Assembly (NCBI GenBank): GCA_017645785.1
Contig: JAGCNW010000030.1
Span: forward strand, 27,045 to 91,044
Source: Treponema sp.
Lineage (GTDB): Bacteria > Spirochaetota > Spirochaetia > Treponematales > Treponemataceae
DNA: 64,000 nucleotides
Direction of reading: 5' to 3'
Shown: positions 5,053 through 50,414 of the stretch, piece by piece
Layout of the letters: each line of letters starts with the position of its first letter
How positions within the stretch are numbered: position 1 is the stretch's first letter
Program-made: the position numbers and the translations under genes
The notes under the pieces: generated by a model
What the model saw: only the letters and a program-made list of their open reading frames with translations
Database searches by the model: none
Told to the model about the DNA's origin: nothing

Positions 5053-5958
5053 TTAATAATCGAGTTCGTCAAGGCGGAGTTTCCGCCCATTCTTGACGAA
5101 TTGGCTGAGCTTGATTTGCCCGCTCTTGTAAAGCCCGTATCTTGTCTTTCCGAGTATCTCCCTTTGCTCTTCGTCCGAAAGGCTGTCAACGAACTCTTGG
5201 TAGGTTGGCAACTCGACGTCAGGCTCTCCGTCCACTTCGGCTATCAAAACGCAGCGGCAGCGGTTATGGAGAGGGTAGTTGGGAGCCTTCGCCCTGTCGG
5301 AGAAGAACAAGCCGTGGTAGTCTCCGCAGACAACGCAAGTGTGCCCGTCAAGCGTGGCGCAACAGCGGTAGCCCCTTATTTGCTCGGAGTTCGCCTCGTA
5401 AGTCCGCAAGTCGGCGAACTTGGCGAAAGACGGTATCGAAGTCTCGAAGTCCGACATAACGGAGTTCTCGAAGGATTTCTTCTGCCTTCCGGCGGTCTCA
5501 ACGGCTCCCTCGCTTGAGCCGCCGAAAGCCCAAGCGGAGCGGACGGCGGAAGAGTAGGCCGTTCTCACGCTTCTAGCCAAGCGGTCGGAGGCCGACTGTA
5601 TGGTGTCCTTGCCGTTGTAAGGGGTGAACTTCACGAAAGAGCTGAAGTCGTCGGGAGTTTTGTCGAAGCCGTATAGTTTGGAAAGCCACTTCGCTTGCTT
5701 GGCCGCCACTCCGACGGCGGCTCCTATGGCCAAGGCGGAAAGGGCGGTCGAAAGGGCGGAAGTCCTTTTTTTAATCTCGGACTCCGCCTCGGAAACGGCG
5801 GCCTTCGTGTGGTAGTCAGGCACGGAAAGGATTATGTCGTCAAGGTCGCCCTCGCACTCCTCTAAGAGTTCAAGGGCTTTCTCCGCCTCTCCGTCCGCGT
5901 AAGCCTCAATGTCGATGTATCTTTTGAGAAAATCGTCGGCTTTCAAACTTCGCTCCAC
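5053..5958 (-). CDS. Minor head / head morphogenesis protein (Phage_Mu_F, SPP1 gp7 family)
   Basis: C-terminal CCATLDGHTCVVCGDYHG...NYPLHNRCRCVLI is the family signature. The track start (6141) would overlap the upstream gene by about 200 nt. In-frame GTG 5958 or TTG 5946 (GGAG upstream) are more plausible starts. Confidence 0.75.
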   Translation of the reverse strand: MERSLKADDFLKRYIDIEAYADGEAEKALELLEECEGDLDDIILSVPDYHTKAAVSEAESEIKKRTSALSTALSALAIGAAVGVAAKQAKWLSKLYGFDKTPDDFSSFVKFTPYNGKDTIQSASDRLARSVRTAYSSAVRSAWAFGGSSEGAVETAGRQKKSFENSVMSDFETSIPSFAKFADLRTYEANSEQIRGYRCCATLDGHTCVVCGDYHGLFFSDRAKAPNYPLHNRCRCVLIAEVDGEPDVELPTYQEFVDSLSDEEQREILGKTRYGLYKSGQIKLSQFVKNGRKLRLDELDY

Positions 5959-7283
5959 GGCCTCAAGTATCCGATTACGGTCTTGTAGTCCCACTTGGCT
6001 ATCTTCGCCCCGTCCTGCTTGAAGCCGTCCTGCTCGAAGACGACAAGGTATGTGGGAAAGGTCTCGATGACGATTGCCACGTGTCCGTATTTGTTCTTTT
6101 CGGTCGCTCCGAAAACAACGACGTCCTCCTGCTGTCCGCAAAAGCGGTCGGTGATGAGATTAAGGTATTTTTTTTCAATGGGAAACTCGTTGTATCGCAG
6201 AACCAAGTCCTTCGCCCCGCCGTCCGCTCCGAGAGACTCCGTGCGGGGAATGTTCCAGCCTTCGTCGCACCATTGGCGATACAAGTCCATACAATTATGG
6301 ACTTTGTAATTATTGCAAATGTAAGTGTGCGTTCCGTCTGTTTCAAGGTTGTAAACTTCTTGTTCAGATTCCTCCAAATATTCCAAATAGCGTTTATGAG
6401 TTTTGGTGTTGTTGAAACAAACTGTCAGCATATAAAGAGGTTTGATGGATTTCACCAATTTGCCTTTTATTCTGATATAATCAGAACTCCTTTTTGAAAG
6501 ACGAAGGCTCTTTGTTGCGCATCCTAATTTTATGCACATGGCTTGAAAAGCCATCAAAAGCGGCAAATTAGTGTTTGTTATTCTGTAAGAATTGTGATGG
6601 GGCGACCCATCCGCATTTATAAAACCTTCCAAAATCAAAGAGTATTCGCGGTTGGAGAATGTAAGGGGCAACTTCTTTTCCGCTCCGCATACATTCAGAA
6701 TGAAATCAGTGAGTTTTTTATGCTCCCTCTTCAACAAACCAGCCACATACGCATTTTCACTTTCTTGATGAACCCTCTCGTCTCCCGTCAAACCTAACGA
6801 ATGGACAAAGGCTCTTTTTTTAACGCCATAAGTAATTCTGATTTCGTCGGTGCGGTTGTCTTTGTGATAGCCGATATTGCCATCTCCAAGCCAAAATCCG
6901 AGAAACTTCAACTCGTTGTCAGTCAAACCGCTGGGCGCATAAATTTCTCTGTCAAAAAGAGCGGGAGTCTCTTTTTCAAGATGTTGGGCAGGCACAAACC
7001 TTCCGCTTTGGCAATAAAACGGGTGGTCGGGAGTTACATAGAAATCGCCAAGTTCCGTTCTGAGGTGAACAACCTTTCGCTTGGTGTTAAAAAGCTTGAC
7101 TACTGTGTTAACTTGGTTGTCATAGCCTATGACTTTATCGCCAACCTTAATGTCCTCAATCGGCTTATAAGTCCAATCCGACATCAAGACACAATGCCCT
7201 TTCGTGAAACATTGAGGCCCCGCGTATCCGTCGTAATCCACCTTTGTCTTGATGTGTTTCTGAATGAAATCCCAAATGTCCAC
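5943..7283 (-). CDS. CHAP-domain peptidoglycan hydrolase precursor interrupted by an intein
   Basis: Exteins MDIW...DYDGYAGPQ + CMDLYRQWCDEGW...KYGHVAIV...FEQDG reconstitute a LysK-like CHAP motif (compare DADGYYHAQCQDLITDY and GHIGIV in phage K LysK, from memory). See the intein feature. Confidence 0.8.
   Translation of the reverse strand: MDIWDFIQKHIKTKVDYDGYAGPQCFTKGHCVLMSDWTYKPIEDIKVGDKVIGYDNQVNTVVKLFNTKRKVVHLRTELGDFYVTPDHPFYCQSGRFVPAQHLEKETPALFDREIYAPSGLTDNELKFLGFWLGDGNIGYHKDNRTDEIRITYGVKKRAFVHSLGLTGDERVHQESENAYVAGLLKREHKKLTDFILNVCGAEKKLPLTFSNREYSLILEGFINADGSPHHNSYRITNTNLPLLMAFQAMCIKLGCATKSLRLSKRSSDYIRIKGKLVKSIKPLYMLTVCFNNTKTHKRYLEYLEESEQEVYNLETDGTHTYICNNYKVHNCMDLYRQWCDEGWNIPRTESLGADGGAKDLVLRYNEFPIEKKYLNLITDRFCGQQEDVVVFGATEKNKYGHVAIVIETFPTYLVVFEQDGFKQDGAKIAKWDYKTVIGYLRPWSEV
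6294..7211 (-). mobile_element. Intein (306 aa) with LAGLIDADG homing endonuclease domain
   Basis: Residues 25-330 of the 446-aa ORF. It starts CFTKGHCVLMSDW..VGDKV and ends THTYICNNYKVHN followed by +1 Cys. LAGLIDADG motifs are LKFLGFWLGDGNI and LILEGFINADGS. Confidence 0.8.
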
Positions 7284-7293
7284 AAAAGCCCCC

Positions 7294-8814
7294 TTACGCC
7301 TTGACAGCGCGGTGTTCCTGCGCCCGCTTGCTCTTGAAGGCGTCGTAGATTTCCTTGTTCGTGAGTCCCGACAACTGCTCCATATCGATTAGGTATATGA
7401 AGTCGTCGTATGTCATATCGGGTTCGACCAACTCCTGCTGCTGCAAAATCCAGAACACGCTGTAGAGCGGGAACTTTCCTTGTCCCGAAATGTTGGCGAT
7501 TGAGTTGATGATGTTCGGGTCAAGGCTCATAGTCTCGTAGTCGTAGTTCAACTGCAACGAAATGTTGCCTTCGTAACCCTTCCACTCCATGAACCACTGC
7601 AAGATTTGAGTGACCTTGACGCTGATGTTCCTTGCGAGCGTGGCGAGGCGGGCATTCTCTCCCGCGCGGTGGACGTAAGCGGACTCCGCCGTTTCCGATG
7701 TTTTCTTGTCGGGCGCTATGTCCTTCAAGAACAAGCCCGCCATTTGGCTTTCGATTTTGTCTATGTCCTTCTCGGAGTGGGCGAGTCCCTCTCCCGCAAA
7801 CTCAATCTTTCCGACCTTGGCTTCAGGCTCCGGAATCATAAGGAAAGCGTCGTCGCCCAAGGTTATCGACTCGTTCTGCTCCTTGTGCTCTTCGTCTTCC
7901 TTGGCCTCGTGTCCTGTAATCCAGCCCGTGCCGAGAGTGGAGATGTGGACTCCGTTCTTGAAGTCGGCGGTAGATTGGTAGTGGGCTATGTTGAGAACCG
8001 CCAAGTTGTAGAGCGGCGGCTGCTCAGGCTCCCCGAAAGGAAGCATGACGAAAGGAATGTATTCAATCGGATTTCCGTTAACCGTAATCGGAATGACGGT
8101 CTCTGTGTATTCAACGACCTTGCCGTTCGCGTCCTTAACGGGGTCGTAGACGGTCTGGTAATACTCTCCTTTTTCGTTTATCGCCAAAACTCTGTATCGG
8201 GTCTCGTATGAGTGGACGAACATAGAGCCTCTGTCAACGCGCTCCTTCAGCTTCACGAGCGAAAGCCTTTCCACTCCGTTGAAGTTGTCGAAACGCCAAA
8301 AGTCTATGTCCTCCGCCTTGTAATACTTCAAGTGCGGCCTGATTCCCATTTTCTCGGCCTCTTCCACGGTCAAACCTTCGGGCGCGGCGGGCATATCCAA
8401 TAGGATTCCGCCGAATCCCGTGGCCATAACGTCCCTTACGCTGTCGGAAAGGAACTGATACAAGCCGTTGCCCCTGTTGTCGATGTTGCCCAACGCTCCG
8501 CTGTCGATGAAGTTGTCGGGGGCTTGTATCGCGGGGCTTCTTCTGAAAATCATGCCGTGCATAATGTCCAAAGCCTGCCCCGTGAAGTTGACGTAGACGG
8601 CGCGCTTCAAGAAGGCGGCGTATCTTCGCTCGGTCTCAATTTTTGACTTGCCCGGAGCCTTGGGGAGATACTCTGGCCCCGCGGCCTTAACCGCGTCGCT
8701 TCCCTCAATGCAGTCGCGCATAACCTTCCATTGGGCTTCCCTTGTCAGATACAAGGGGCATTTGTTCTCCACGCTCAAGTCGGGAGTCTTGACTGGTTCG
8801 CTGGGTATATACAT
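7294..8814 (-). CDS. Portal protein
   Basis: 506 aa between the terminase large subunit and the head-morphogenesis genes. The N-terminal WKVMRDCIEGSDAVKAAGPEYLP recalls DUF4055-type portals (memory). Confidence 0.75.
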   Translation of the reverse strand: MYIPSEPVKTPDLSVENKCPLYLTREAQWKVMRDCIEGSDAVKAAGPEYLPKAPGKSKIETERRYAAFLKRAVYVNFTGQALDIMHGMIFRRSPAIQAPDNFIDSGALGNIDNRGNGLYQFLSDSVRDVMATGFGGILLDMPAAPEGLTVEEAEKMGIRPHLKYYKAEDIDFWRFDNFNGVERLSLVKLKERVDRGSMFVHSYETRYRVLAINEKGEYYQTVYDPVKDANGKVVEYTETVIPITVNGNPIEYIPFVMLPFGEPEQPPLYNLAVLNIAHYQSTADFKNGVHISTLGTGWITGHEAKEDEEHKEQNESITLGDDAFLMIPEPEAKVGKIEFAGEGLAHSEKDIDKIESQMAGLFLKDIAPDKKTSETAESAYVHRAGENARLATLARNISVKVTQILQWFMEWKGYEGNISLQLNYDYETMSLDPNIINSIANISGQGKFPLYSVFWILQQQELVEPDMTYDDFIYLIDMEQLSGLTNKEIYDAFKSKRAQEHRAVKA

Positions 8815-11224: not shown

Positions 11225-11400
11225 AAAGAAAGAGTGAACGCGAGAAAGAACGCATTGAGGCGTTGTATGAACTTGTGGAAAAAAAACCGGACGCATTTTT
11301 CTTTTTATTTCTGCTTCATTGCTTGCTTTTGCCGCAAGATAAATTCGAGCAACTTATAAAAAGTATGGAATCAGATTTGAAGGTAGGAGAGAATATATGA
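11221..11400 (+). CDS. Small hypothetical protein (59 aa)
   Basis: In the frame of track ORF 11167..11400. Start taken at the ATGA overlap. ATGA-coupled to the nadR-like gene. Confidence 0.4.
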   Translation: MKRKSEREKERIEALYELVEKKPDAFFFLFLLHCLLLPQDKFEQLIKSMESDLKVGENI

Positions 11401-12506
11401 ATATTGGAATTTGTTTCGGCGGGTATTCACCGATGCACCAAGGCCACTTAGACTTAATTATGAAAAGCAAAAAGTTGAATGACTTTACACATGTCATTGT
11501 GTGCGGTTATGGCGGAGACCCGAGAGGAGAACTTCTTCCATTGGAAAAGCGTTATAACATTATTCGCAACTTCTTGCAGGAAGAAACCGTCGCAGTTCAT
11601 ATGATAAATGACACTAAACTCGGCCTTGATGAGTCTATGAGCCAAAATAATTGGCGTGTTTGGCTTGGAGAAGTGGAAAAATTTGTTTGGCAGACACCTC
11701 TTTTGAAAAATGAAGATTCTTGGATTGATACAGTAAATTTTTACGTTGCGGAAGAAAGGTATGTTAGCGATATTAACAACGCCATAAAAAATTTTGGAGC
11801 GTTCCCTTCTTATCGAGTCCGTGTTAATTTTTCAGACCGTAATGAAAATCTGATTTCTGGAACTATGTGCCGCTCAAACCCTATTAAAAGCTGGTTTAAA
11901 ATCACGCAGCCATTCAGAGCTTACTATTCTCACAATATTCTCATCACAGGAACCGCTTCTGAAGGAAAGACAACTCTCACGCGCGATATTGGCAAATACT
12001 TCGGCATCCCATACTCATACGAAAAGGGCCGCGACATCTGCCACTTAAAGAAAGACACGGAATTTAATTTTAAAGATTTTTTGTATAACATCACGGAGCA
12101 GAATAGATATAACGAAGAGTTAATTTGTTCCCCGCAAAACCCTGGCGTGTTCATTTCCGACACAGACAATATGGTAACTCTGATGTATGCGGCGGCATAT
12201 AAAGAGCGCGAAGGCTTTTCTATTGGCAAAGAGGAATACAAAGTCCTTTATGAAGTTGCAGAGCAGTATGCAAAAACAATAAAATGGAACAAAATCTTTC
12301 TTATCAAGCCCCATAAAAAACCCATCGTTGATGACGGCGAAAGATACATGCCGGATTCTGCCTACAACATTCGGGTTAAATTCTACAACAACCTAAAAAA
12401 ACTTTACGAGGCGTTTGGGTATGAGTTTGAAGAACTTGATGGCAACTATTATGAAAATTTTTGCTCTGTAAGGGATTATATCCGCAGCATTGGTTTTCAG
12501 AATTAA
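11397..12506 (+). CDS. nadR: NadR-type bifunctional NMN adenylyltransferase / ribosylnicotinamide kinase (no HTH domain)
   Basis: GGYSPMHQGHLDLI matches the GxFxPxHxGH nucleotidyltransferase motif. The central P-loop ITGTASEGKTTL matches the RNK domain. The region looks AT-richer than its flanks. Confidence 0.8.
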   Translation: MNIGICFGGYSPMHQGHLDLIMKSKKLNDFTHVIVCGYGGDPRGELLPLEKRYNIIRNFLQEETVAVHMINDTKLGLDESMSQNNWRVWLGEVEKFVWQTPLLKNEDSWIDTVNFYVAEERYVSDINNAIKNFGAFPSYRVRVNFSDRNENLISGTMCRSNPIKSWFKITQPFRAYYSHNILITGTASEGKTTLTRDIGKYFGIPYSYEKGRDICHLKKDTEFNFKDFLYNITEQNRYNEELICSPQNPGVFISDTDNMVTLMYAAAYKEREGFSIGKEEYKVLYEVAEQYAKTIKWNKIFLIKPHKKPIVDDGERYMPDSAYNIRVKFYNNLKKLYEAFGYEFEELDGNYYENFCSVRDYIRSIGFQN

Positions 12507-12535
12507 AATAAAAATCCAAATACGCAGGAGGAATT

Positions 12536-13273
12536 ATGAAATTTGGAGAGTTTTTTAAAGAGGAATTTGTCAACGGCAAAAATGCCGTTGATTGGGCTAT
12601 GTTTGCGGTAGGCCTTGCGTTGCAGTCGCTCGCGATTATACTTGGCTTCGTTTCCGGGACGCCGGACAGCGCGGGACTGGTTGTCTCTGGCATCGCTGGC
12701 GTTATTTCCGTCGTGCTTTGCTCGCAGGGAAAGATTTCATTTTACATCTTCGGCTACATTCAATTATTTACTTATGTGTTTTGTTTCGCCTTGCCGCAAC
12801 GACTTTGGGGCGAATTCATTGAGAACATTATGTATGCGGTTACAATGGTTATAGGCTTGATTGTTTGGGCCAAGAATTACCGCAGGCGTGAAAACGCGAA
12901 AGCAATCGAAATTAAGGCGAAGAAACTTGGCTGGAAAGGAAATCTTGTCACCGCATTGATTTTTGTTGCGGGCACAATCGGTTACTGGATGTTCTTAAAA
13001 AACGTTCCAATGTTAGGCTCCCTTGACAGTCAGCCATTTGTGGACAGCGTAACTTCGGTTCCAGCTTATATCGCTCAGTTCTTTATGGTTTTCGGTTTTC
13101 GAGAACAATGGATTTATTGGCTTATTCTTGACATAGGTTCAGTGGTTCTCGCTTTCCGCGCGGGGTCTTGGGTTATGACGGCGCAATTTATGTTCTGGTG
13201 CGTCAATTGTATATACGGATTCATTCTTTGGCACAAATCAGCGGTTTACGACAATTACTCAAAAATATGTTGA
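12536..13273 (+). CDS. pnuC: PnuC-type nicotinamide riboside transporter
   Basis: 245 aa with multiple TM segments. Trp-rich C-terminal half (EQWIYWLILD, FMFWCVNCIYGFILW). Lies 30 nt downstream of the nadR-like gene. Confidence 0.75.
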   Translation: MKFGEFFKEEFVNGKNAVDWAMFAVGLALQSLAIILGFVSGTPDSAGLVVSGIAGVISVVLCSQGKISFYIFGYIQLFTYVFCFALPQRLWGEFIENIMYAVTMVIGLIVWAKNYRRRENAKAIEIKAKKLGWKGNLVTALIFVAGTIGYWMFLKNVPMLGSLDSQPFVDSVTSVPAYIAQFFMVFGFREQWIYWLILDIGSVVLAFRAGSWVMTAQFMFWCVNCIYGFILWHKSAVYDNYSKIC

Positions 13274-39056: not shown

Positions 39057-39308
39057 ATGACTTACGAAGAATTGTTAGAATTACACCCTTATTTAAAAGA
39101 AATGAGAATTGGGTTATCAGATGACGACGAAACGCTGGCAAGGTGTGTTTTTGAGAGTTGCAATAAGCAAGTTGAGTCGCAGAAAGCCGTAATCAATTTT
39201 CTCAAAAAGGAACTGCAAAAGAAAACTTACTGCCGCCAAGTTATGAAGCGACAGTATAGGGAATTGAAGCAGAAATACGAAGCGTTGAAAAACAAGGAGA
39301 AGGTATGA
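39057..39308 (+). CDS. Hypothetical protein (83 aa)
   Basis: ORF track. Confidence 0.5.
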   Translation: MTYEELLELHPYLKEMRIGLSDDDETLARCVFESCNKQVESQKAVINFLKKELQKKTYCRQVMKRQYRELKQKYEALKNKEKV

Positions 39309-39832
39309 GACATTTTATTATCGTCGATATGCAGAAGGATTTCGTGACAGGGCCGTTGGGAACGCCCGAAGCGAAAAAGATTGTTCCCAAAATCAAGAAG
39401 CGCTTGGAGAAAGCAAGGGAAGACGGCTCAAGGATTTACTTCACGCAAGACGCCCACACTTTAAACTACCTTAAAACGCTTGAAGGAAAGAAACTGCCTG
39501 TTCCGCACTGCGTCGTGGGAACGAAAGGCTTCGACATTGTGGACGAGCTTCCGCCGTTGAAACGAAAGGAAACTTTGATACTTAAGAACCAATTCGGCTA
39601 CGCTGATTGGTATAGAAAAATAAATCCGGGCGACACGGTTACAATATGCGGCGTGTGCACGGACATTTGCGTAGTGTCGAACGCCTTGCTCATCAAGGCT
39701 ATTGGCGAAGTGAACGTCAAGATTTTGGCTGACTGTTGCGCGGGAACTACGCCCGAAGCGCACGAAGCGGCTCTTACGGTAATGCAAAATTGCCAATGCG
39801 AGATAGTGGGGTGGAAAAAAGAGGGGAAATGA
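39305..39832 (+). CDS. pncA: Isochorismatase-fold nicotinamidase (PncA-like)
   Basis: VDMQKDF, TQDAHT...PVPHCVVGTKG and TICGVCTDICVVSNA match the nicotinamidase Asp, metal-site and Cys signatures (memory). Confidence 0.65.
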   Translation: MRHFIIVDMQKDFVTGPLGTPEAKKIVPKIKKRLEKAREDGSRIYFTQDAHTLNYLKTLEGKKLPVPHCVVGTKGFDIVDELPPLKRKETLILKNQFGYADWYRKINPGDTVTICGVCTDICVVSNALLIKAIGEVNVKILADCCAGTTPEAHEAALTVMQNCQCEIVGWKKEGK

Positions 39833-40035: not shown

Positions 40036-40280
40036 AAATACGGCAGGAAGATTCCACTCCGATTGGAGACTGGTTTCACAACAACGGAGTTCAAAGTGTG
40101 TTTGAAAGCGTCAAAAATCAAGTTGACGAGTTCGACGTGGACACGGAACGGCTCGCCAACGAGTGCGACATTCTCATAAACCTTTTGAAAGGTTTGAAAG
40201 GGCAGGTTAAGAAAGTTGAGGCGGCTTGGCAGAAAAGCCAAACGCAAAAAAAGATTATGGAGGCTTTTTGTGAGAGTTGA
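40032..40280 (+). CDS. Small hypothetical protein (82 aa)
   Basis: Track frame. ATGA-coupled. Confidence 0.45.
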   Translation: MKIRQEDSTPIGDWFHNNGVQSVFESVKNQVDEFDVDTERLANECDILINLLKGLKGQVKKVEAAWQKSQTQKKIMEAFCES

Positions 40281-40284
40281 GGTT

Positions 40285-40815
40285 ATGCATAGTCCAGAAG
40301 AAAGAGACTGGTTCGGAGTTCGTAGAAGAGCATTGGTTACTGTCGGAAAATTGCCAAATCCAGACAAAAAGACTGACTTTGAATGGCAGAAGAAAATGCT
40401 TAGGTGCAGACATTCGCCAATCCGTTACTTGAGGTTTTCATTTTTGTTGAAAGACATTCCGTATTGGGTGCACGCTGAATTATGTAGACATCATATAGGA
40501 ATTGAAAAATATGTGAAAAGTCAAAGGGACGACAGAAATAACAACGACATTCCGCGCTCTGAAAAACCGCAAGGTGCGTTGGTTGATATGATTGTCGATG
40601 TAAATGCGGAAGCTCTTATGACTTTAATGAATAAAAGGTTGTGCGGGTGCGCGACAAAAGAAATGCAGGAACTTATGTTGTTGATACGAAAAGAAGTAAT
40701 CTGGAAGAATCCAGAGTTTACGGATTTTCTCGTTCCTATGTGTGAATATCAACACGAATGTAAAGAGTGTTGTCCGTGCAATCATAAAGCATTGTATTTT
40801 TGTGAGGCTAAATGA
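40285..40815 (+). CDS. Divergent, short ThyX-like (flavin-dependent thymidylate synthase-like) protein
   Basis: HSPIRYLRFSFLLKDIPYWVHAELCRHHIGIEKYVKSQR resembles the ThyX core but has RHH instead of RHR. NKRLCGCATKEMQELM resembles the later R.C..AQ.EI segment. Confidence 0.5.
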   Translation: MHSPEERDWFGVRRRALVTVGKLPNPDKKTDFEWQKKMLRCRHSPIRYLRFSFLLKDIPYWVHAELCRHHIGIEKYVKSQRDDRNNNDIPRSEKPQGALVDMIVDVNAEALMTLMNKRLCGCATKEMQELMLLIRKEVIWKNPEFTDFLVPMCEYQHECKECCPCNHKALYFCEAK

Positions 40816-41624
40816 AAACTTATAAAATTTATATTCATATAAATAAAAAAAATGGCAAGGTTTACGTTGGACAAACAAATAGAAGTAATATAAACAATCG
40901 CTTTGGGAAAAATGGAACTCACTATTACGATTGTCCAAGGTTCGGTAATGCTATAAAAAAATATGGCTGGAATAATTTTTGTCATTTAATTCTTGAAGAC
41001 AACATTTCGGAATCAGAAGTTGATTATAAAGAGCGCTTTTATATAAAGCTATATCATTCAACTGACAAAAAATATGGATATAATATTTCTGATGGAGGTT
41101 GTTTCTTTAAGGTAATTCCGATTGAAACGAGACAAAAAATAAGCAAAACATTAAAGGGGAGGCCATCTAAAAATTTGGGAAGACATCACACCGAAGAAAC
41201 AAAAAGAAAAATATCTGAGAAGAAAAAAGGTGTTAGCGTTCCAAACAATATTGTGTGGACAAAAGAAATGAGAGAGAGACAAAGCAAAAAATTAAAAGGA
41301 CACAAAATGCCAATGTCTGCAATCGAAAAACTTAAAAAATATTCTGGAAAAAATGCGGTGTGGTATGGCAGGCATCATACGAAAGAAACAAAGGAAAAGT
41401 TACGTCAGTATTGCGGCGAAAAAAGTTCGTTTTATGGGAAAAAGCATACTCAAGAATACAAGGATTATATGAGTAAAAAGGTTTCCGGTGTGAACAACCA
41501 AGCCTACGGGAAACATTGGTATACAAACGGGGAAGTAAACGCATTTACTTATGTATGTCCTATGGGTTATTGGAAAGGAATAACAAAGAAAAATAGCGAA
41601 AAAAAGAAAATTTTTTCTAATTAA
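40812..41624 (+). mobile_element. Free-standing GIY-YIG homing endonuclease with NUMOD3-like repeats
   Basis: YKIYIHINKKNGKVYVGQT, plus repeated GRHHTEETKRKIS, GRHHTKETKEKL and GKKHTQEYKDYM. Looks AT-rich versus its flanks. ATGA-overlaps the thyX-like stop. Confidence 0.75.
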
Positions 41625-47801: not shown

Positions 47802-47965
47802 CGTCTGATTTTGAGTTGGTCGTTGAGGCGAAAGAATACGCCTTTGCGAAATTGGACAAACTGATTGTTTCAAAGGAACTTTACAGCGACATCTTCAAGG
47901 TTGTTTACAAGGCCTACATAGATGGAGTTGACAAAGGGAGAAAGAAAGGAGGAAAGGAGGAATGA
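47798..47965 (+). CDS. Small hypothetical protein (55 aa)
   Basis: Own translation. ATGA-coupled on both sides. Confidence 0.35.
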   Translation: MTSDFELVVEAKEYAFAKLDKLIVSKELYSDIFKVVYKAYIDGVDKGRKKGGKEE

Positions 47966-48369
47966 GAAAAAATGGGAAAGATTATGACGACGGTTATTCG
48001 TTTTTGCGGTCGGTTGCAGGGGCTATTATTGCTTTTGTTGTGCTTTGCCTTGTGTCCGCGTTCTGTTTATGCATTGGAGGATGTGCCACAACCAAGTCCC
48101 ACTCTGGAGGAGTTAGGGAATCAAGTTCATTCATCGTTGGCAAACTTGAAGGCTCAGTCGAAGATTTTGACAGAGGAATTGCAAGAGCGGTCGAAAGAAG
48201 TCGAAGCATTGAAGACGAACTTGAACGACTTGACTATCTGTTTGGACAATACGAACAAACTGCTCTCAGACTACGAGACCAAGTTGATAGTCTACGAGCA
48301 GAAATTGAAAGGTTGGAAAAAATTCGCGACGATAGTGGCTTTGCTAGCGCTTCTGTTCATAGCGACTAG
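47962..48369 (+). CDS. Frame A: N-terminal TM or lipoprotein-like signal plus charged coiled coil (i-spanin-like, tentative)
   Basis: ATGA-coupled to the upstream ORF. AGAIIAFVVLCLVSAFCLCIGGCATTK, then EDELERLDYLFGQYEQTALRLRDQVDSLRAEIERLEK. Confidence 0.45.
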   Translation: MRKNGKDYDDGYSFLRSVAGAIIAFVVLCLVSAFCLCIGGCATTKSHSGGVRESSSFIVGKLEGSVEDFDRGIARAVERSRSIEDELERLDYLFGQYEQTALRLRDQVDSLRAEIERLEKIRDDSGFASASVHSD

Positions 48370-48436
48370 GGTGGTAACTTTAATTCTAAGAGTGAAGGGC
48401 ATAAAACTACCCGAAATCGTGAACATCTTATTGTGA
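47972..48436 (+). CDS. Frame B (+1 relative to A): signal-like N-terminus, coiled coil, C-terminal TM
   Basis: GGAGG 12 nt upstream. LLLLLLCFALCPRSVYA, a PQPSPT stretch, LKAQSKILTEELQERSKEVEALKTNL, and a C-terminal FATIVALLALLFIATRVVTLIL. Confidence 0.45.
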   Translation: MGKIMTTVIRFCGRLQGLLLLLLCFALCPRSVYALEDVPQPSPTLEELGNQVHSSLANLKAQSKILTEELQERSKEVEALKTNLNDLTICLDNTNKLLSDYETKLIVYEQKLKGWKKFATIVALLALLFIATRVVTLILRVKGIKLPEIVNILL

Positions 48437-48443
48437 GGCGTTT

Positions 48444-49079
48444 ATGAAACCTTGGGAATTATACGAACACCAAAAATCCTTGAATTACAACAAGAACTCC
48501 GTTGACTACAACTGGAAGGTAGAAGTTGTGAACGAAGAGAAGACTATTTATGTCTTCACGCAATACTCAACCTCTCCGCTTGATTGGATTGTCAACTTCC
48601 TTTTCTTTTTCATACCGCAGATAAGGAATTGGTATTTGTATTTCACCTGCTTTGGTTGGCAAACGGCGTTCAACTCTTGCAAGCAATTAGTGATGAATCA
48701 AGCGCTTGCGGCGATAAATGTCTTCCCTGACTACAAGATTGTTTGTTGCGGACATTCTTACGGCGGAGCGTCTTCCGTCCTTACAGGAATAGAGATTTTC
48801 TTCGCCACGGCGGTAAAGCCGGACTTGATTACTTTTGGAGCGCCCAAGCCTTTGTTCCTTCTGCTCACGAAACTGTTCTCAAGGCTTTTCTTCGGAAAGG
48901 TCAAGCAATACGCGCATAGGGCAGACATTGTGACCTATATGCCGCCGTTGCCGGGCTATTGGAACGTTAAGGTAATCCGCATAGGAAAGTTCTCTTTCAA
49001 GGCCTTATTCAACGGCGACACGCACCAATCATACGGAGACCCAAGCTTATACGAAGGAGTGAGCGATGATAACGATTAG
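48444..49079 (+). CDS. Class-3 lipase-like alpha/beta hydrolase
   Basis: CCGHSYGGASS (GxSxG), TFGAPKP, HRADIVTYMPPLP (Asp) and GDTHQSY (His) match the Lipase_3 triad layout (memory). Confidence 0.65.
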   Translation: MKPWELYEHQKSLNYNKNSVDYNWKVEVVNEEKTIYVFTQYSTSPLDWIVNFLFFFIPQIRNWYLYFTCFGWQTAFNSCKQLVMNQALAAINVFPDYKIVCCGHSYGGASSVLTGIEIFFATAVKPDLITFGAPKPLFLLLTKLFSRLFFGKVKQYAHRADIVTYMPPLPGYWNVKVIRIGKFSFKALFNGDTHQSYGDPSLYEGVSDDND

Positions 49080-49341
49080 GGAAATAGCGGACAACAACAC
49101 GGCCATCAGTTCAACAAGGTGGGCGTTCGCCGCCGTGATAAAGGCCGACTTGACTATTGTGTTCATAACCTTGGCGGCGGGCCTTGTGGGGCATTTCATC
49201 GGAAAACCTTTGGACGAGCGGATTTACGACTACGTTAAGTCCGCCCTCGGAATAATAACGGGAATACTCGCCGTGGTCAAAGCCGCCCAAGGCTTCGAGC
49301 CTAGGCACACGAAGAAAGAGCCGAAGGAGGAAGAACAATGA
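49066..49341 (+). CDS. Small two-TM membrane protein (holin-like candidate)
   Basis: ORF track. Two hydrophobic segments and a charged C-tail. Confidence 0.45.
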   Translation: MITIREIADNNTAISSTRWAFAAVIKADLTIVFITLAAGLVGHFIGKPLDERIYDYVKSALGIITGILAVVKAAQGFEPRHTKKEPKEEEQ

Positions 49342-49910
49342 TTTGGGCTTTCATTCTTTTCGCTCCGATTTGCGCGGCTTACATTTTTTGGGAGTGCAAT
49401 ATAATCAAGAACAACGCCGTCAGGGTCATCTTGAAGGATTTTGTTGACATAAGCCCTGCCGTAATACTTTTAGCGTTCAACAGACCTTGGGCGGCTATAT
49501 TTCTTATGGCTTGTCTTATGGCGAATATGTTTATTTACGACAACTTGGTTTTAGGCGGAATCCTATTCGCCGCCGCATACGCCTCGGCTTCCGTTCTCGC
49601 GTCTTGGTTCCACCCGTTCGACATCACCTGCGCCGCGATGAGTGTGGGATTCGTCGTCGCCTCGTTGGTTCCAATCATTTTGCTGTATAAGGGCGAAAAA
49701 AAATTCAAAGTCGGCATTTGCGTTTACGCTTTAATCGCCGTAGTCCCACTTGCTTACGCCTTGTCAAAAACATTGAATTTCGGATTTTTGTGTTTGGCGT
49801 TAGGCGACATCGGTCTTGGTGGTTACGAAGCGACAAATAAGAAAGTGGTGAAAATAATAGCGAACATTTTGTATTTCGCGGGAACCTGCTTGGTTCCTCT
49901 TTCATTGTGA
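49338..49910 (+). CDS. Polytopic membrane protein (190 aa)
   Basis: ORF track. ATGA-coupled. Confidence 0.55.
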   Translation: MIWAFILFAPICAAYIFWECNIIKNNAVRVILKDFVDISPAVILLAFNRPWAAIFLMACLMANMFIYDNLVLGGILFAAAYASASVLASWFHPFDITCAAMSVGFVVASLVPIILLYKGEKKFKVGICVYALIAVVPLAYALSKTLNFGFLCLALGDIGLGGYEATNKKVVKIIANILYFAGTCLVPLSL

Positions 49911-49912
49911 AT

Positions 49913-49959
49913 CTTCTTGGGAAACCAAGAAAGAAAATATTAAGGAGGCTCAAAAATGA
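49913..49959 (+). repeat. 47-nt direct repeat copy A (GNRA hairpin + SD + ATGA)
   Basis: CTTCTTGGGAAACCAAGAAAGAAAATATTAAGGAGGCTCAAAAATGA, identical to 50174-50220. Confidence 0.85.
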
Positions 49960-50135
49960 CAATGAGCAATTTGATTGACGATGTGAACTCAGGCAAGTGC
50001 TTGTATAAATTCGCAAGGAACGGAGCTGCGTTTTCGGGGCTTCGCAAGCAAAGTTTCACTCCAAAAGAGTTGAAGTCGCCGGCGTTCGGCTTTGTGAAGA
50101 ACAAAGGCTCGAAGTCTTTTGTCAAAGTTCGTTAA
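49956..50135 (+). CDS. Small basic protein (59 aa)
   Basis: Own translation: MTMSNLIDDVNSGKCLYKFARNGAAFSGLRKQSF... Its start lies inside repeat copy A. Confidence 0.4.
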   Translation: MTMSNLIDDVNSGKCLYKFARNGAAFSGLRKQSFTPKELKSPAFGFVKNKGSKSFVKVR

Positions 50136-50173
50136 AGACGCTGGAACTTGCTTTATTCCGCTCGCGTTGTAAC

Positions 50174-50220
50174 CTTCTTGGGAAACCAAGAAAGAAAATA
50201 TTAAGGAGGCTCAAAAATGA
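50174..50220 (+). repeat. 47-nt direct repeat copy B
   Basis: Identical to 49913-49959. Confidence 0.85.
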
Positions 50221-50414
50221 GCGAAAAATTGTATGTTTTGTTGGTGGCATTGACAGGTGCGTTGGCCACTACGGTCAACGAAATCTTCAAGTTCCTTGAC
50301 GTTCCGTGGCTTAGCGTTGGCATTGGAATCACAGGCGCCGTCGCAACTTGCATTACAACTGTTTTGGCGATTGTCAAGGAATACCAAAACAAGAAAGCCA
50401 ATAAAAGCGCCTAA
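50217..50414 (+). CDS. Small two-TM membrane protein (65 aa, holin-like candidate)
   Basis: ORF track. Its start lies inside repeat copy B. Confidence 0.5.
   Translation: MSEKLYVLLVALTGALATTVNEIFKFLDVPWLSVGIGITGAVATCITTVLAIVKEYQNKKANKSA

What the first reader, a model, noticed from the sequence alone, without database searches (positions are those of the whole stretch)
6294..7211. Intein with a LAGLIDADG endonuclease inserted exactly at the catalytic cysteine of a CHAP lysin in the head module
**Evidence for the intein**
- The 446-aa ORF reads ...DYDGYAGPQ | CFTKGHCVLMSDW...(306 aa)...THTYICNNYKVHN | CMDLYRQWCDEGW...
- Removing residues 25-330 gives DYDGYAGPQCMDLYRQW. This matches the CHAP nucleophile region (phage K LysK: DADGYYHAQCQDLITDY, from memory). 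It is followed by GHVAIV and FEQD.
- The insert has Cys1, terminal HN plus a +1 Cys, and two LAGLIDADG motifs.

**Consequence**
- The +1 splicing nucleophile is also the lysin's catalytic Cys, so the enzyme should be inactive until splicing.

**Why it is unusual**
- Phage inteins usually sit in terminase, polymerase, helicase or RNR genes, so a lysin host is uncommon.
- The gene lies between the portal and the Mu-F-like head protein. This suggests a virion-packaged or ejected lysin rather than a lysis-cassette endolysin.
- I recognised no other peptidoglycan hydrolase in the window.
Basis: partly seen in the sequence, partly recalled or inferred. Interest (0 to 1): 0.66.

Follow-up and report, generated by a model that had tools for sequence, protein, structure and literature searches.

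The report
Mobile intein splitting a phage lysin
A phage cell-wall-cutting enzyme gene is interrupted, exactly at its catalytic cysteine, by a self-splicing mobile protein element (an intein with its own DNA-cutting enzyme); the element is textbook, but I found no earlier report of one in this kind of host gene.

Summary
The ORF at window 5943..7283 (minus strand, 446 aa) is a 140-aa CHAP peptidoglycan hydrolase. It is interrupted by a 306-aa intein (6294..7211) of the canonical class 1 type, which carries a two-motif LAGLIDADG homing endonuclease.

- **Empty site:** A natural protein (P0317) is 100% identical to the predicted spliced product. Contigs 97-99% identical in DNA lack exactly these 918 bp.
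- **Catalytic cysteine:** The +1 Cys aligns with the mutagenesis-proven nucleophile of LysK CHAPk (Cys54). The intein also splits the D-x-D...Q-C-x-D calcium loop.
- **Fold:** The spliced product models at pLDDT 95.7 and best matches phage endolysin CHAP domains.
- **Distribution:** The same insertion site recurs in about 25 close alleles and about 35 more distant protein clusters. Some are modular lysins (CHAP with GH25, Amidase_2 or SH3) next to holin genes. It occurs in no deposited phage genome.
- **Mobility:** Inteins are more alike than their host genes, are AT-rich, and are under purifying selection.

Homologs sit among holin- and spanin-like genes, so an endolysin role is more likely.

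I found no published intein in a lysin. It is a new member of a known kind, of moderate interest.

The parts
5943..7283 (-). Precursor gene: CHAP hydrolase interrupted by an intein (446 aa, GTG start, GGGGG ribosome-binding site 5-6 nt upstream, stop at 5943-5945)
   Evidence: The identical protein P0121 is seen on 6 contigs.
7212..7283 (-). N-extein, residues 1-24 (MDIWDFIQKHIKTKVDYDGYAGPQ). It carries D16 and D18 of the CHAPk-type Ca2+ loop.
   Evidence: D16 and D18 invariant in 80 homologs; CHAPk Asp45 and Asp47.
6294..7211 (-). Intein, residues 25-330 (306 aa, 918 bp). GC is 41% against 52% in the exteins; GC3 is 45% against 69.5%.
6939..7211 (-). N-terminal Hint splicing segment (residues 25-115): block A Cys25 (CFTKGHCVLM) and block B T84-P-D-H87
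   Evidence: Hom_end_hint profile positions 1-50; PI-SceI alignment; omega 0.04 against L059.
6384..6938 (-). LAGLIDADG homing-endonuclease domain (about residues 116-300). Motif 1 is at 6879..6911 (L125-G135, catalytic D134). Motif 2 is at 6606..6638 (L216-G226, catalytic D225).
   Evidence: LAGLIDADG_3 above cutoff; GFWLGDG and ADG invariant in 26 alleles; the profile matches I-DmoI and the PI-SceI endonuclease region.
6294..6383 (-). C-terminal Hint segment (blocks F and G, residues 301-330), ending in H329-N330
   Evidence: V310, N312, D316, T320, H329 and N330 invariant; aligns to PI-SceI ...VVHN|C.
6291..6293 (-). Cys331 codon: the +1 splicing nucleophile and also the CHAP catalytic cysteine (Cys25 of the spliced enzyme)
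   Evidence: Invariant in all alignments. It aligns with PlyGRCS Cys29. The match to CHAPk starts at profile position 14 and chain residue 43, which with no gap puts it on Cys54. Cys54 is catalytic by mutagenesis.
5946..6293 (-). C-extein, residues 331-446. It carries D333 (Ca2+ ligand equivalent), His401 (6081..6083), Glu417 (6033..6035) and Asp419.
   Evidence: H401, E417, Q418 and D419 invariant; CHAP profile; structure.
7294..8814 (-). Portal gene (DUF4055, 506 aa) immediately upstream, 10 nt before the CHAP start
5053..5958 (-). MuF/SPP1 gp7-like head-morphogenesis gene (301 aa), overlapping the CHAP 3' end by 16 nt
   Evidence: gene call on L004, which is 100% identical to the window; PHROG 241, E = 9e-31.
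47972..50414 (+). Candidate lysis-accessory cluster without a hydrolase: a spanin-like 154-aa gene (47972..48436), Lipase_3 (48444..49079), and membrane proteins at 49066..49341, 49338..49910 and 50217..50414. It may be the partner of the CHAP endolysin; this is an inference.
   Evidence: 39% identity, E = 1e-20, to the protein that follows CHAP and a holin-like gene in L002.

Best explanation
**What it is.** The gene encodes a small (140-aa) single-domain CHAP peptidoglycan hydrolase, most likely the phage's endolysin. A selfish mobile intein has invaded it.

**How it works.**
- The gene is translated as a 446-aa precursor from the late head operon (portal-CHAP-MuF).
- The 306-aa intein removes itself by canonical class 1 protein splicing:
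  1. Cys25 makes a thioester with Gln24.
  2. Cys331 (+1) takes over the N-extein.
  3. Asn330 cyclises and releases the intein.
  4. An S-to-N shift forms the Gln24-Cys331 peptide bond.
- Splicing reconstitutes the motif D-x-D-G-Y-x-x-x-Q-C-x-D, which is both the Ca2+-binding loop and the catalytic Cys. So the precursor should be inactive and the spliced product active.
- The freed intein is a two-motif LAGLIDADG endonuclease. It is predicted to cut the intein-less allele (...GGGCCTCAA|TGTATGGACTTG...) when an intein-less relative shares a cell, and repair copies the intein in (homing).

**Shown:** the insertion, the empty-site alleles, the motifs, the fold, the family-wide site conservation, and the signatures of horizontal spread and selection.

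**Inferred:** splicing, endonuclease activity, precursor inactivity, and the endolysin role.
For: **It is an insertion.**
- The joined exteins equal the natural protein P0317.
- There is a clean 918-bp presence/absence between genomes 97-99% identical. No mismatch lies within 31 bp (L008) or 73 bp (L009, L010) upstream, or within 94-111 bp downstream, of the junction.
- 608 intein-less homologs were found, and all 120 listed are 132-185 aa.

**Intein features.**
- Hom_end_hint and LAGLIDADG_3 score above their cutoffs.
- PI-SceI matches at block A, the LAGLIDADG region and the VHN|C block, and I-DmoI also matches.
- C1, TxxH, HN, C+1 and both catalytic Asp residues are conserved in 26 alleles.

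**CHAP features.**
- The Pfam score passes its cutoff only after the insert is removed.
- C25, H95, E111 and D113 of the spliced product correspond to CHAPk C54, H117, E134 and N136.
- The AF2 model has pLDDT 95.7. The top PDB matches are PlyGRCS (TM 0.74), Ly7917, LysGH15, LysK CHAPk, PlyPy and LysIME-EF1.

**Mobility.**
- Inteins are 61-70% identical while their exteins are 37-50% identical. The nearest extein relatives (65-85%) lack the intein.
- GC3 is 45% in the intein and 69.5% in the exteins.
- Intein omega is 0.11, and 0.04 in the splicing segment.

**Lysin context.**
- The same site is occupied in modular lysins with GH25, Amidase_2, Glucosaminidase, SH3, ChW or dockerin domains.
- Some of these follow holin-like genes.
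- Intein-less homologs sit among holin- and spanin-like genes.
- Pfam found no other hydrolase in the window ORFs I scanned.
Against: - Nothing here demonstrates splicing or DNA cleavage.
- The endonuclease core has too few substitutions against the closest allele for a firm selection estimate (17 changes, omega 0.38).
- In this phage the CHAP gene is not next to a holin or spanin. It sits tightly between portal and MuF. The candidate holin/spanin cluster is about 41 kb away and has no PHROG lysis annotation.
- The genome is incomplete. The region beyond the 2144-aa tail protein was not retrievable, so a second, conventional endolysin cannot be excluded.
- The model of the precursor is poor for the intein part (mean pLDDT 57.6), so there is no structural support for precursor inactivity.
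Confidence: 0.85

Rival explanations
1. The CHAP protein is a virion-packaged or ejected lysin. It would be made with the head proteins, loaded into the capsid near portal and MuF, and used at infection to pierce the cell wall. The intein would still be a selfish passenger.
For: - The order portal-CHAP-MuF, with tight or overlapping junctions, is conserved in L001, L004, L006, L008, L009 and L061.
- Homologs also lie near the portal in phages with unrelated terminase and portal families (L014, L011, L007).
- MuF/gp7-type proteins are known capsid-internal, portal-associated proteins (from my own knowledge).
Against: - In L014, L011 and L007 the CHAP gene near the portal is accompanied by holin- and spanin-like genes. 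So a whole lysis cassette, not a structural gene, sits there.
- In L002 and L013 it lies outside the structural module.
- It is a bare 140-aa catalytic domain with no structural or anchoring domain.
- The closest solved relatives are endolysins.
- Pfam recognised no other endolysin for this phage in the 30 larger window ORFs I scanned, which included all likely genes of 150 aa or more outside the head module.
Confidence: 0.12
2. The intein has been co-opted as a switch. Splicing would be conditional (on redox state, metal or temperature), so the lysin is made as a zymogen and lysis timing depends on splicing.
For: - The insertion splits both the nucleophile and the Ca2+ loop, so activity must wait for splicing.
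- Cys1 and Cys+1 could form a redox-sensitive disulfide, as in some characterised inteins (from my own knowledge).
- The site is occupied across many diverged lysins.
Against: - Near-identical phages do without the intein, so it is dispensable.
- The endonuclease motifs are conserved, the composition is foreign, and intein and extein histories disagree. These all fit a selfish element.
- Active-site insertion is the general habit of inteins (PMC5050341).
Confidence: 0.08
3. The insert is a decayed, non-splicing relic, or a normal accessory domain. The gene would then be dead or would work with the insert in place.
For: - No biochemical data exist.
- At least one allele (P0142) has lost the C-terminal half of the CHAP domain.
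Against: - All splicing residues are intact and conserved.
- omega is 0.04-0.11.
- The exteins are 100% identical to a free-standing allele.
- Hundreds of homologs lack the segment.
Confidence: 0.03
4. The CHAP domain is not a cell-wall enzyme here. It could be another amidase or protease, for example one acting on head proteins.
For: - CHAP and papain-like folds include non-lytic amidases. Gsp amidase and trypanothione synthetase-amidase appear lower in the fold search.
- This head module has no recognised protease.
Against: - The best sequence and structure matches are all phage or bacterial lysins.
- The Ca2+ loop motif is that of CHAPk.
- Homologs sit in lysis cassettes.
- SPP1-type head modules normally lack a protease (from my own knowledge).
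Confidence: 0.03

Closest known systems
PI-SceI (yeast VMA1 intein) and other class 1 inteins with LAGLIDADG homing endonucleases
   Same: - Cys1, block B TxxH, and C-terminal HN followed by Cys+1.
- A Hint domain split by a two-motif LAGLIDADG endonuclease.
- Block A is closely similar (CFTKGHCVLMSDW... against CFAKGTNVLMADG...).
- The profile matches PI-SceI at all three regions.
   Different: - It is 306 aa rather than 454 aa, so it probably lacks PI-SceI's extra DNA-recognition region.
- The host is a peptidoglycan hydrolase, not an ATPase.
- Overall identity outside the conserved blocks is low.
Phage inteins in TerL, helicase/primase, RNR, DNA polymerase and DNA methyltransferase genes
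   Same: - A selfish intein sits in a conserved active-site motif of a phage gene, with sporadic presence among close relatives.
- The nearest inteins in deposited phages are in C5-methyltransferase (Mannheimia phage 587AP2, P1 Dmt) and NrdD (Lactococcus 949 group), at 22-27% identity.
   Different: - Those hosts all act on nucleic acids or nucleotides. Kelley et al. 2016 (PMC5050341) state that all phage intein hosts analysed bind nucleic acid.
- This host acts on the cell wall.
- No deposited phage genome (50,697 records) has this arrangement.
CHAP endolysins LysK/CHAPk, LysGH15, PlyGRCS, LysIME-EF1
   Same: - Papain-like CHAP fold (TM 0.64-0.74).
- Q-C-x-D nucleophile motif with a D-x-D Ca2+ loop.
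- His and Glu-x-Asn/Asp catalytic residues.
   Different: - Those are multi-domain (CHAP with amidase and/or SH3) enzymes from Gram-positive phages and are uninterrupted at protein level.
- This one is a bare 140-aa domain. It is probably from a phage of a diderm gut bacterium (spanin-like neighbours in homologs; Treponema MAG hits), and it carries an intein.
Group I introns in staphylococcal phage lysin genes (lysK of phage K, G1, ISP, A5W)
   Same: A self-splicing mobile element with a homing endonuclease interrupts a phage lysin gene (PMC5526547).
   Different: Those splice at the RNA level, so the protein is never made as an interrupted precursor. Here splicing is at the protein level, at the catalytic residue.

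Membership tests
Intein (canonical class 1) | In-frame insertion that is absent from otherwise orthologous alleles | tested here: met
   The joined exteins equal P0317. A 918-bp indel separates genomes 97-99% identical. 608 intein-less homologs were found.
Intein (canonical class 1) | Cys/Ser at intein position 1, block B TxxH, and C-terminal His-Asn followed by Cys/Ser/Thr at +1 | tested here: met
   C25, T84/H87 and H329-N330|C331 are conserved in 26 alleles. The HN|C junction occurs in about 35 further clusters.
Intein (canonical class 1) | Hint-fold profile match | tested here: met
   PF05203 scores 36.3-37.2 bits against a cutoff of 32.1. PI-SceI, PRP8 and gp41-1 inteins are hit in PDB. 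The generic PF14890 and TIGR01445 models stay below cutoff.
Intein (canonical class 1) | Autocatalytic protein splicing that yields ligated exteins and free intein | not testable with these tools
   Only indirect support: omega 0.04 in the splicing segment, and exteins identical to a functional-looking free allele.
LAGLIDADG homing endonuclease (two-motif, intein-borne) | Two LAGLIDADG motifs, each ending in an acidic catalytic residue, with a profile match | tested here: met
   LGFWLGD134G and EGFINAD225G are invariant. PF14528 scores 23.0-24.4 bits against a cutoff of 22.5. I-DmoI matches at E = 0.005 by profile.
LAGLIDADG homing endonuclease (two-motif, intein-borne) | Site-specific cleavage of the intein-less allele, followed by homing | not testable with these tools
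   Indirect support: the presence/absence polymorphism, inteins more similar than exteins, and foreign composition.
CHAP domain peptidoglycan hydrolase (PF05257) | Profile match above the curated cutoff | tested here: met
   The spliced sequence scores 28.7 bits against a cutoff of 26. The precursor scores only 22.7.
CHAP domain peptidoglycan hydrolase (PF05257) | Conserved Cys and His (plus Glu/Asn) aligned with experimentally defined catalytic residues | tested here: met
   C331, H401, E417 and D419 are invariant. They align with PlyGRCS C29 and, by the ungapped +29 offset at the start of the match, with CHAPk C54. CHAPk mutagenesis is in PMC4126393.
CHAP domain peptidoglycan hydrolase (PF05257) | Papain-like alpha+beta fold | tested here: met
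   The AF2 model has pLDDT 95.7 and pTM 0.91. Foldseek gives probability 1.00 to six phage CHAP lysins, with TM up to 0.74.
CHAP domain peptidoglycan hydrolase (PF05257) | Cleavage of peptidoglycan | not testable with these tools
   -
Endolysin of a holin-endolysin(-spanin) lysis cassette | Adjacent to holin and/or spanin genes | tested here: not met
   In the window the gene is flanked by portal and MuF. The feature is met in homolog loci L002, L007, L011, L013 and L014 and in distant intein-CHAP lysins L024, L025, L028, L030 and L034. A spanin-like/TM cluster lies at 47972..50414.
Endolysin of a holin-endolysin(-spanin) lysis cassette | It is the phage's lytic hydrolase (no other endolysin in the genome) | tested here: inconclusive
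   Pfam found none in the 30 larger window ORFs I scanned, which included all likely genes of 150 aa or more outside the head module. None appears in the Pfam hits precomputed for the genes of the 9.7-kb tail extension. The genome end was not retrievable.
Virion-associated (ejected) lysin | Part of, or fused to, a structural protein, or detected in virions | tested here: not met
   It is a free-standing 140-aa domain with no extra domain. Virion presence is not testable.

The most novel reading that the evidence does not exclude
The intein is more than a parasite: it makes the lysin a self-activating zymogen. Because Cys+1 is the nucleophile and the Ca2+ loop is split, the lysin is made harmless, and splicing (possibly gated by redox state or metal) sets when lytic activity appears. 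This could also let a head-operon-encoded, possibly capsid-delivered, lysin be produced safely. That would be a natural intein-controlled lysis switch, conserved at one site across many phage lysins.
Probability: 0.08. Interest if true: 0.8.

Novelty: new member of a known kind. Interest (0 to 1): 0.55.

Why it matters
- **A host outside the usual bias.** It extends the known range of intein hosts to a cell-wall hydrolase. Published surveys describe a strong bias towards nucleic-acid and nucleotide enzymes, and this lies outside it.
- **A whole family, not a one-off.** The same site, the CHAP nucleophile, is occupied in dozens of diverged lysins in gut, animal and human-associated viromes. None of them is in the deposited phage collection I searched, and only the window's own protein appears in NCBI, without a name.
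- **A natural experiment.** Phage genomes 97-99% identical exist with and without the 918-bp element. This gives a ready test of homing, splicing and fitness cost.
- **Practical uses.**
  - It offers new cis-splicing inteins with a native Gln(-1)/Cys(+1) junction.
  - It offers new LAGLIDADG endonucleases with a defined target site.
  - It is a natural template for lysins that stay inactive until spliced.
- **A warning for annotation.** Intein-bearing lysins fall below the CHAP cutoff (22.7 against 26 bits), and gene callers truncate them (P0122).

Tried and rejected
1. blastn of the locus against 50,697 deposited phages found no match. tblastn found only distant inteins in methylase, NrdD and other genes, plus staphylococcal CHAP lysins. 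No record covers both parts.
2. NCBIfam gave nothing useful, only weak sub-threshold hits to intein-containing helicase and radical-SAM models.
3. I tried to reach the end of the tail module to look for a conventional lysis cassette. A genome-contig scan with the N-terminus of the 2144-aa tail protein found no relative, so whether a second endolysin exists stays open.
4. The precursor structure, built on an alignment with only one intein-bearing row, was poor for the intein (pLDDT 57.6). It was not used for fold comparison.
5. tblastn of the holin- and spanin-like neighbours of homologs against the window found only one convincing homolog (47972..48436). The MPNAT-motif holin-like family was not found in the window.
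6. PHROGs gave no lysis annotation for the candidate membrane cluster.
7. A 'normal domain rather than an intein' was rejected because of the empty-site alleles. A head-maturation protease was rejected because all close sequence and structure relatives are lysins.
8. dN/dS against L061 was uninformative (1 difference). One helper script printed nothing.
9. Seven literature searches, and targeted reading of two intein surveys and the mycobacteriophage endolysin survey, found no intein in any lysin. Subscription journals and InBase itself were not searchable.
Full report
**1.
The window has a 446-aa ORF on the minus strand at 5943..7283. It has a GTG start and a GGGGG ribosome-binding site, 10 nt after the portal stop. 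Residues 25-330 map to 6294..7211, the coordinates given, and the following Cys331 codon is 6291..6293.

**2. Profile searches separate three parts.**
- The insert alone hits Hom_end_hint (37.2 bits, cutoff 32.1) and LAGLIDADG_3 (24.4 bits, cutoff 22.5).
- The whole protein hits CHAP only below its cutoff (22.7 against 26 bits).
- The joined flanks (140 aa) pass it (28.7 bits).
- PHROG endolysin and amidase families improve from E = 3e-11 to 3.7e-15 when the insert is removed.
- By plain sequence, the first 42 residues of the insert align closely with the yeast VMA1 intein PI-SceI.
- A profile of 26 alleles matches PI-SceI at the N-terminal block, the LAGLIDADG region and the C-terminal VHN|C block. 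It also matches I-DmoI.

**3. It is an insertion, not a domain.**
- A search with the joined flanks found 608 homologs. All 120 listed are 132-185 aa single-domain CHAP proteins without the insert.
- The window protein's own 90% cluster contains 140-aa members. One of them, P0317, is 100% identical to the predicted spliced product.
- Three independent contigs carry the intein-less gene in the same portal-CHAP-MuF setting: L008, L009 and L010, the last from an NCBI assembly. They are 97-99% identical to the window in DNA.
- Their alignments stop at 7209 and resume at 6293, sharing one Cys codon. So the difference is exactly 918 bp.
- In L009 and L010 there is no mismatch within 73 bp upstream or 94-111 bp downstream of the junction. 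L008 has one mismatch 31 bp upstream.
- The empty site reads ...GGATACGCGGGGCCTCAA|TGTATGGACTTGTATCGCC....

**4. Intein anatomy.**
- An alignment of 26 intein-bearing alleles (34-89% identical to the window protein overall) shows one insertion site...Q-C | intein ...H-N | C-(V/M/T/W)-D.
- Conserved residues are Cys25 (position 1), T84 and H87 (block B), D316, H319 and T320 (block F), and H329-N330 with C331 at +1.
- The two LAGLIDADG motifs are GFWLGD134G and AD225G, and both acidic residues are invariant.
- This is a standard class 1 intein with a two-motif endonuclease.

**5. The host enzyme and the catalytic cysteine.**
- In 80 intein-less homologs the invariant residues include D16, D18, C25, D27, H95, E111 and Q112, and D113 is nearly invariant, in spliced numbering.
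- The family profile aligns its Cys with Cys29 of the solved endolysin PlyGRCS. Its match to LysK CHAPk begins at profile position 14 and chain residue 43. With no gap in between, that +29 offset puts C25 on Cys54.
- The CHAPk crystal-structure paper shows that Cys54 and His117 are essential by mutagenesis. Glu134 completes the triad and Asn136 helps form the oxyanion hole. Asp45, Asp47 and Asp56 bind a structural Ca2+ in the motif D-x-D-G-Y-x-H-x-Q-C-x-D (PMC4126393).
- The window protein has D16-Y-D18-G-Y-A-G-P-Q24 | C25-M-D27.
- So the intein splits the Ca2+ loop, and its +1 nucleophile is the enzyme's nucleophile.
- The spliced product models at pLDDT 95.7 and pTM 0.91. Its best PDB matches are CHAP domains of phage lysins: PlyGRCS (TM 0.74, 27% identity), Ly7917, LysGH15, LysK CHAPk, PlyPy and LysIME-EF1.
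- Precursor inactivity is an inference from this geometry. The precursor model was too poor in the intein part to add anything.

**6. A family of lysin inteins.**
- An exhaustive HMMER search of 1.84 billion representatives found the co-linear CHAP-intein-CHAP arrangement in many further clusters of 445-953 aa. About 35 of them show the junction HN|C(W/V/M/F/K)(D/S).
- Their other domains are classic lysin modules: GH25, Amidase_2, Glucosaminidase, SH3, ChW repeats and dockerin.
- In IMG/VR, about 20 viral contigs carry such genes.
- In L024, L025, L028, L030 and L034 the gene lies directly after a small 2-TM holin-like ORF.
- None of the 50,697 deposited phage genomes has the arrangement. The nearest inteins there are in DNA methyltransferase and NrdD genes at 22-27% identity.
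- Of the proteins whose sources I checked, only the window's own protein is listed in NCBI, and none carries an informative name.

**7. Evidence that the element moves and is maintained.**
- Among alleles, inteins are 61-70% identical to the window's while their exteins are only 37-50% identical. The closest extein relatives (65-85%) have no intein.
- Intein GC is 41% (GC3 45%), against 52% (GC3 69.5%) for the exteins.
- Against the 94%-identical allele on L059, intein dN/dS is 0.11. That allele's gene call was truncated, but it is intact with the same GTG start.
- The N-terminal splicing segment has dS 1.36 and omega 0.04. The endonuclease core has dS 0.06. So the intein is itself a recombinant mosaic, and its splicing part is strongly constrained.
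- The endonuclease core has too few changes for a firm omega.
- A more distant relative of the phage (L006, about 72-75% DNA identity) has an intein at the same site that is only 61% identical. This fits long residence, repeated invasion, or both.

**8. What the lysin is for.**
- The window is part of a large phage genome. It carries NadR/PnuC-like genes, ERF, a sliding clamp, an SbcD-like nuclease, ThyX and a free-standing GIY-YIG endonuclease. No tRNA gene was detected, and no integrase domain appeared in the ORFs I scanned.
- The late operon runs terminase-portal-CHAP-MuF-scaffold-capsid. It continues past the left edge into tail genes (L004, 100% identical).
- The portal-CHAP-MuF order is conserved in L001, L004, L006, L008, L009 and L061.
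- Elsewhere the same small CHAP gene (47-55% identical) sits with lysis-type neighbours:
  - 1-2-TM proteins sharing an MPNA(T/E) motif (L007, L011, L014);
  - proteins with an N-terminal TM segment and a coiled coil, and small lipobox proteins (L011, L013, L014);
  - a 2-TM protein and a u-spanin-like protein after the tail genes (L002).
- So the family behaves as the endolysin of lysis cassettes that are sometimes lodged in the head region. Spanin-like genes point to diderm hosts.
- Intein-bearing alleles occur in an uncultured Treponema MAG. Intein-less ones are named from Treponema, Spirochaetia and Lachnospiraceae MAGs.
- In the window, a homolog of the L002 u-spanin-like protein lies at 47972..48436 (E = 1e-20). 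It is followed by Lipase_3 and several membrane proteins, with no hydrolase there.
- Pfam found no other hydrolase in the 30 larger window ORFs I scanned, which included all likely genes of 150 aa or more outside the head module.
- I therefore favour 'sole recognisable endolysin, encoded apart from its membrane partners' over 'virion-packaged lysin'. The genome end could not be retrieved, and only proteomics can exclude packaging.

**9. Comparison with what is known, and novelty.**
- The element is a textbook intein, and insertion at an active-site residue is the norm for inteins.
- What I could not find reported is the host. Seven full-text searches found no intein in any lysin. Neither did targeted reading of the actinobacteriophage intein survey, Kelley et al. 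2016 or the mycobacteriophage endolysin survey.
- The endolysin survey found that none of 224 LysA genes has an intron or intein.
- Kelley et al. state that all phage intein hosts they analysed bind nucleic acid.
- Lysin genes are known to carry group I introns, as in lysK, which is the RNA-level analogue.
- The search cannot see subscription journals or InBase, so 'unreported' is provisional.
- I classify it as a new member of a known kind, with a new extein class and a large uncharacterised allele family.

**10. Verdict.**
- The core interpretation is supported, and the virion-lysin suggestion is not.
- Confidence is high (about 0.85) that this is a splicing-competent mobile intein at the CHAP nucleophile. 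It is moderate (about 0.65) that the host protein is the phage's endolysin.
- Interest is moderate. The case is robust, apparently undescribed and experimentally tractable, but mechanistically canonical.

Noticed in passing
window 40216..41624 (+): A free-standing GIY-YIG + NUMOD3 homing endonuclease (40812..41624) overlaps the end of a ThyX-like ORF (40216..40815) by 4 nt. It is a second mobile endonuclease in the window, and I did not check whether thyX is intron-split.
   Followed up: no
window 47962..50414 (+): A membrane-protein cluster: a 154-aa homolog of the u-spanin-like protein of L002 (E = 1e-20), Lipase_3, a 91-aa TM protein, a 190-aa multi-TM protein and a 65-aa 2-TM protein. A second ORF in another frame (47962..48369) has a TM segment and a lipobox-like CIGGC, reminiscent of embedded Rz/Rz1 spanins. 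The L007 phage also has a Lipase_3 gene, about 2 kb from its CHAP gene.
   Followed up: partly
window 11397..13273 (+): A NadR-like gene (cytidylyltransferase + AAA_28) and a PnuC nicotinamide-mononucleotide transporter. With an isochorismatase/nicotinamidase-like gene at 39305..39832, this suggests a phage NAD-salvage set.
   Followed up: no
L007 9802..9891: A 29-aa ORF (MTLTTFMKTYKGQNVDYKDENF...) just upstream of the intein-CHAP gene looks like a leftover copy of the CHAP N-extein. It may be a scar of recombination at this locus.
   Followed up: no
L059 913..2253 (allele P0122): The gene caller truncated this allele to 410 aa. It is intact with the same GTG start as the window gene. It is mosaic against the window: intein N-part dS 1.36 against endonuclease core dS 0.06, and C-extein residues 331-389 at 59% against 390-446 at 91% identity. 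So recombination breakpoints lie inside both intein and extein.
   Followed up: yes
protein P0142 (393 aa): An intein-bearing allele whose C-extein is cut short before the catalytic His. It is probably a decayed lysin gene still carrying an intact-looking intein.
   Followed up: no
L014 9768..12021; L011 9388..11330; L013 8831..11046: Whole holin/spanin/CHAP cassettes sit inside or beside the head module, between portal and MuF or capsid, in phages with unrelated terminase and portal families. This is an unusual place for lysis genes.
   Followed up: partly
window 5943..7283 and homologs: Annotation pitfall: with the intein in place the CHAP Pfam score falls below the curated cutoff (22.7 against 26 bits). 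The precomputed Pfam hits on record for the window protein list no CHAP domain (P0121; the identical gene on L004), and for P0001 and P0135 the CHAP hit is only weak. Such lysins are easily missed in automated surveys.
   Followed up: yes
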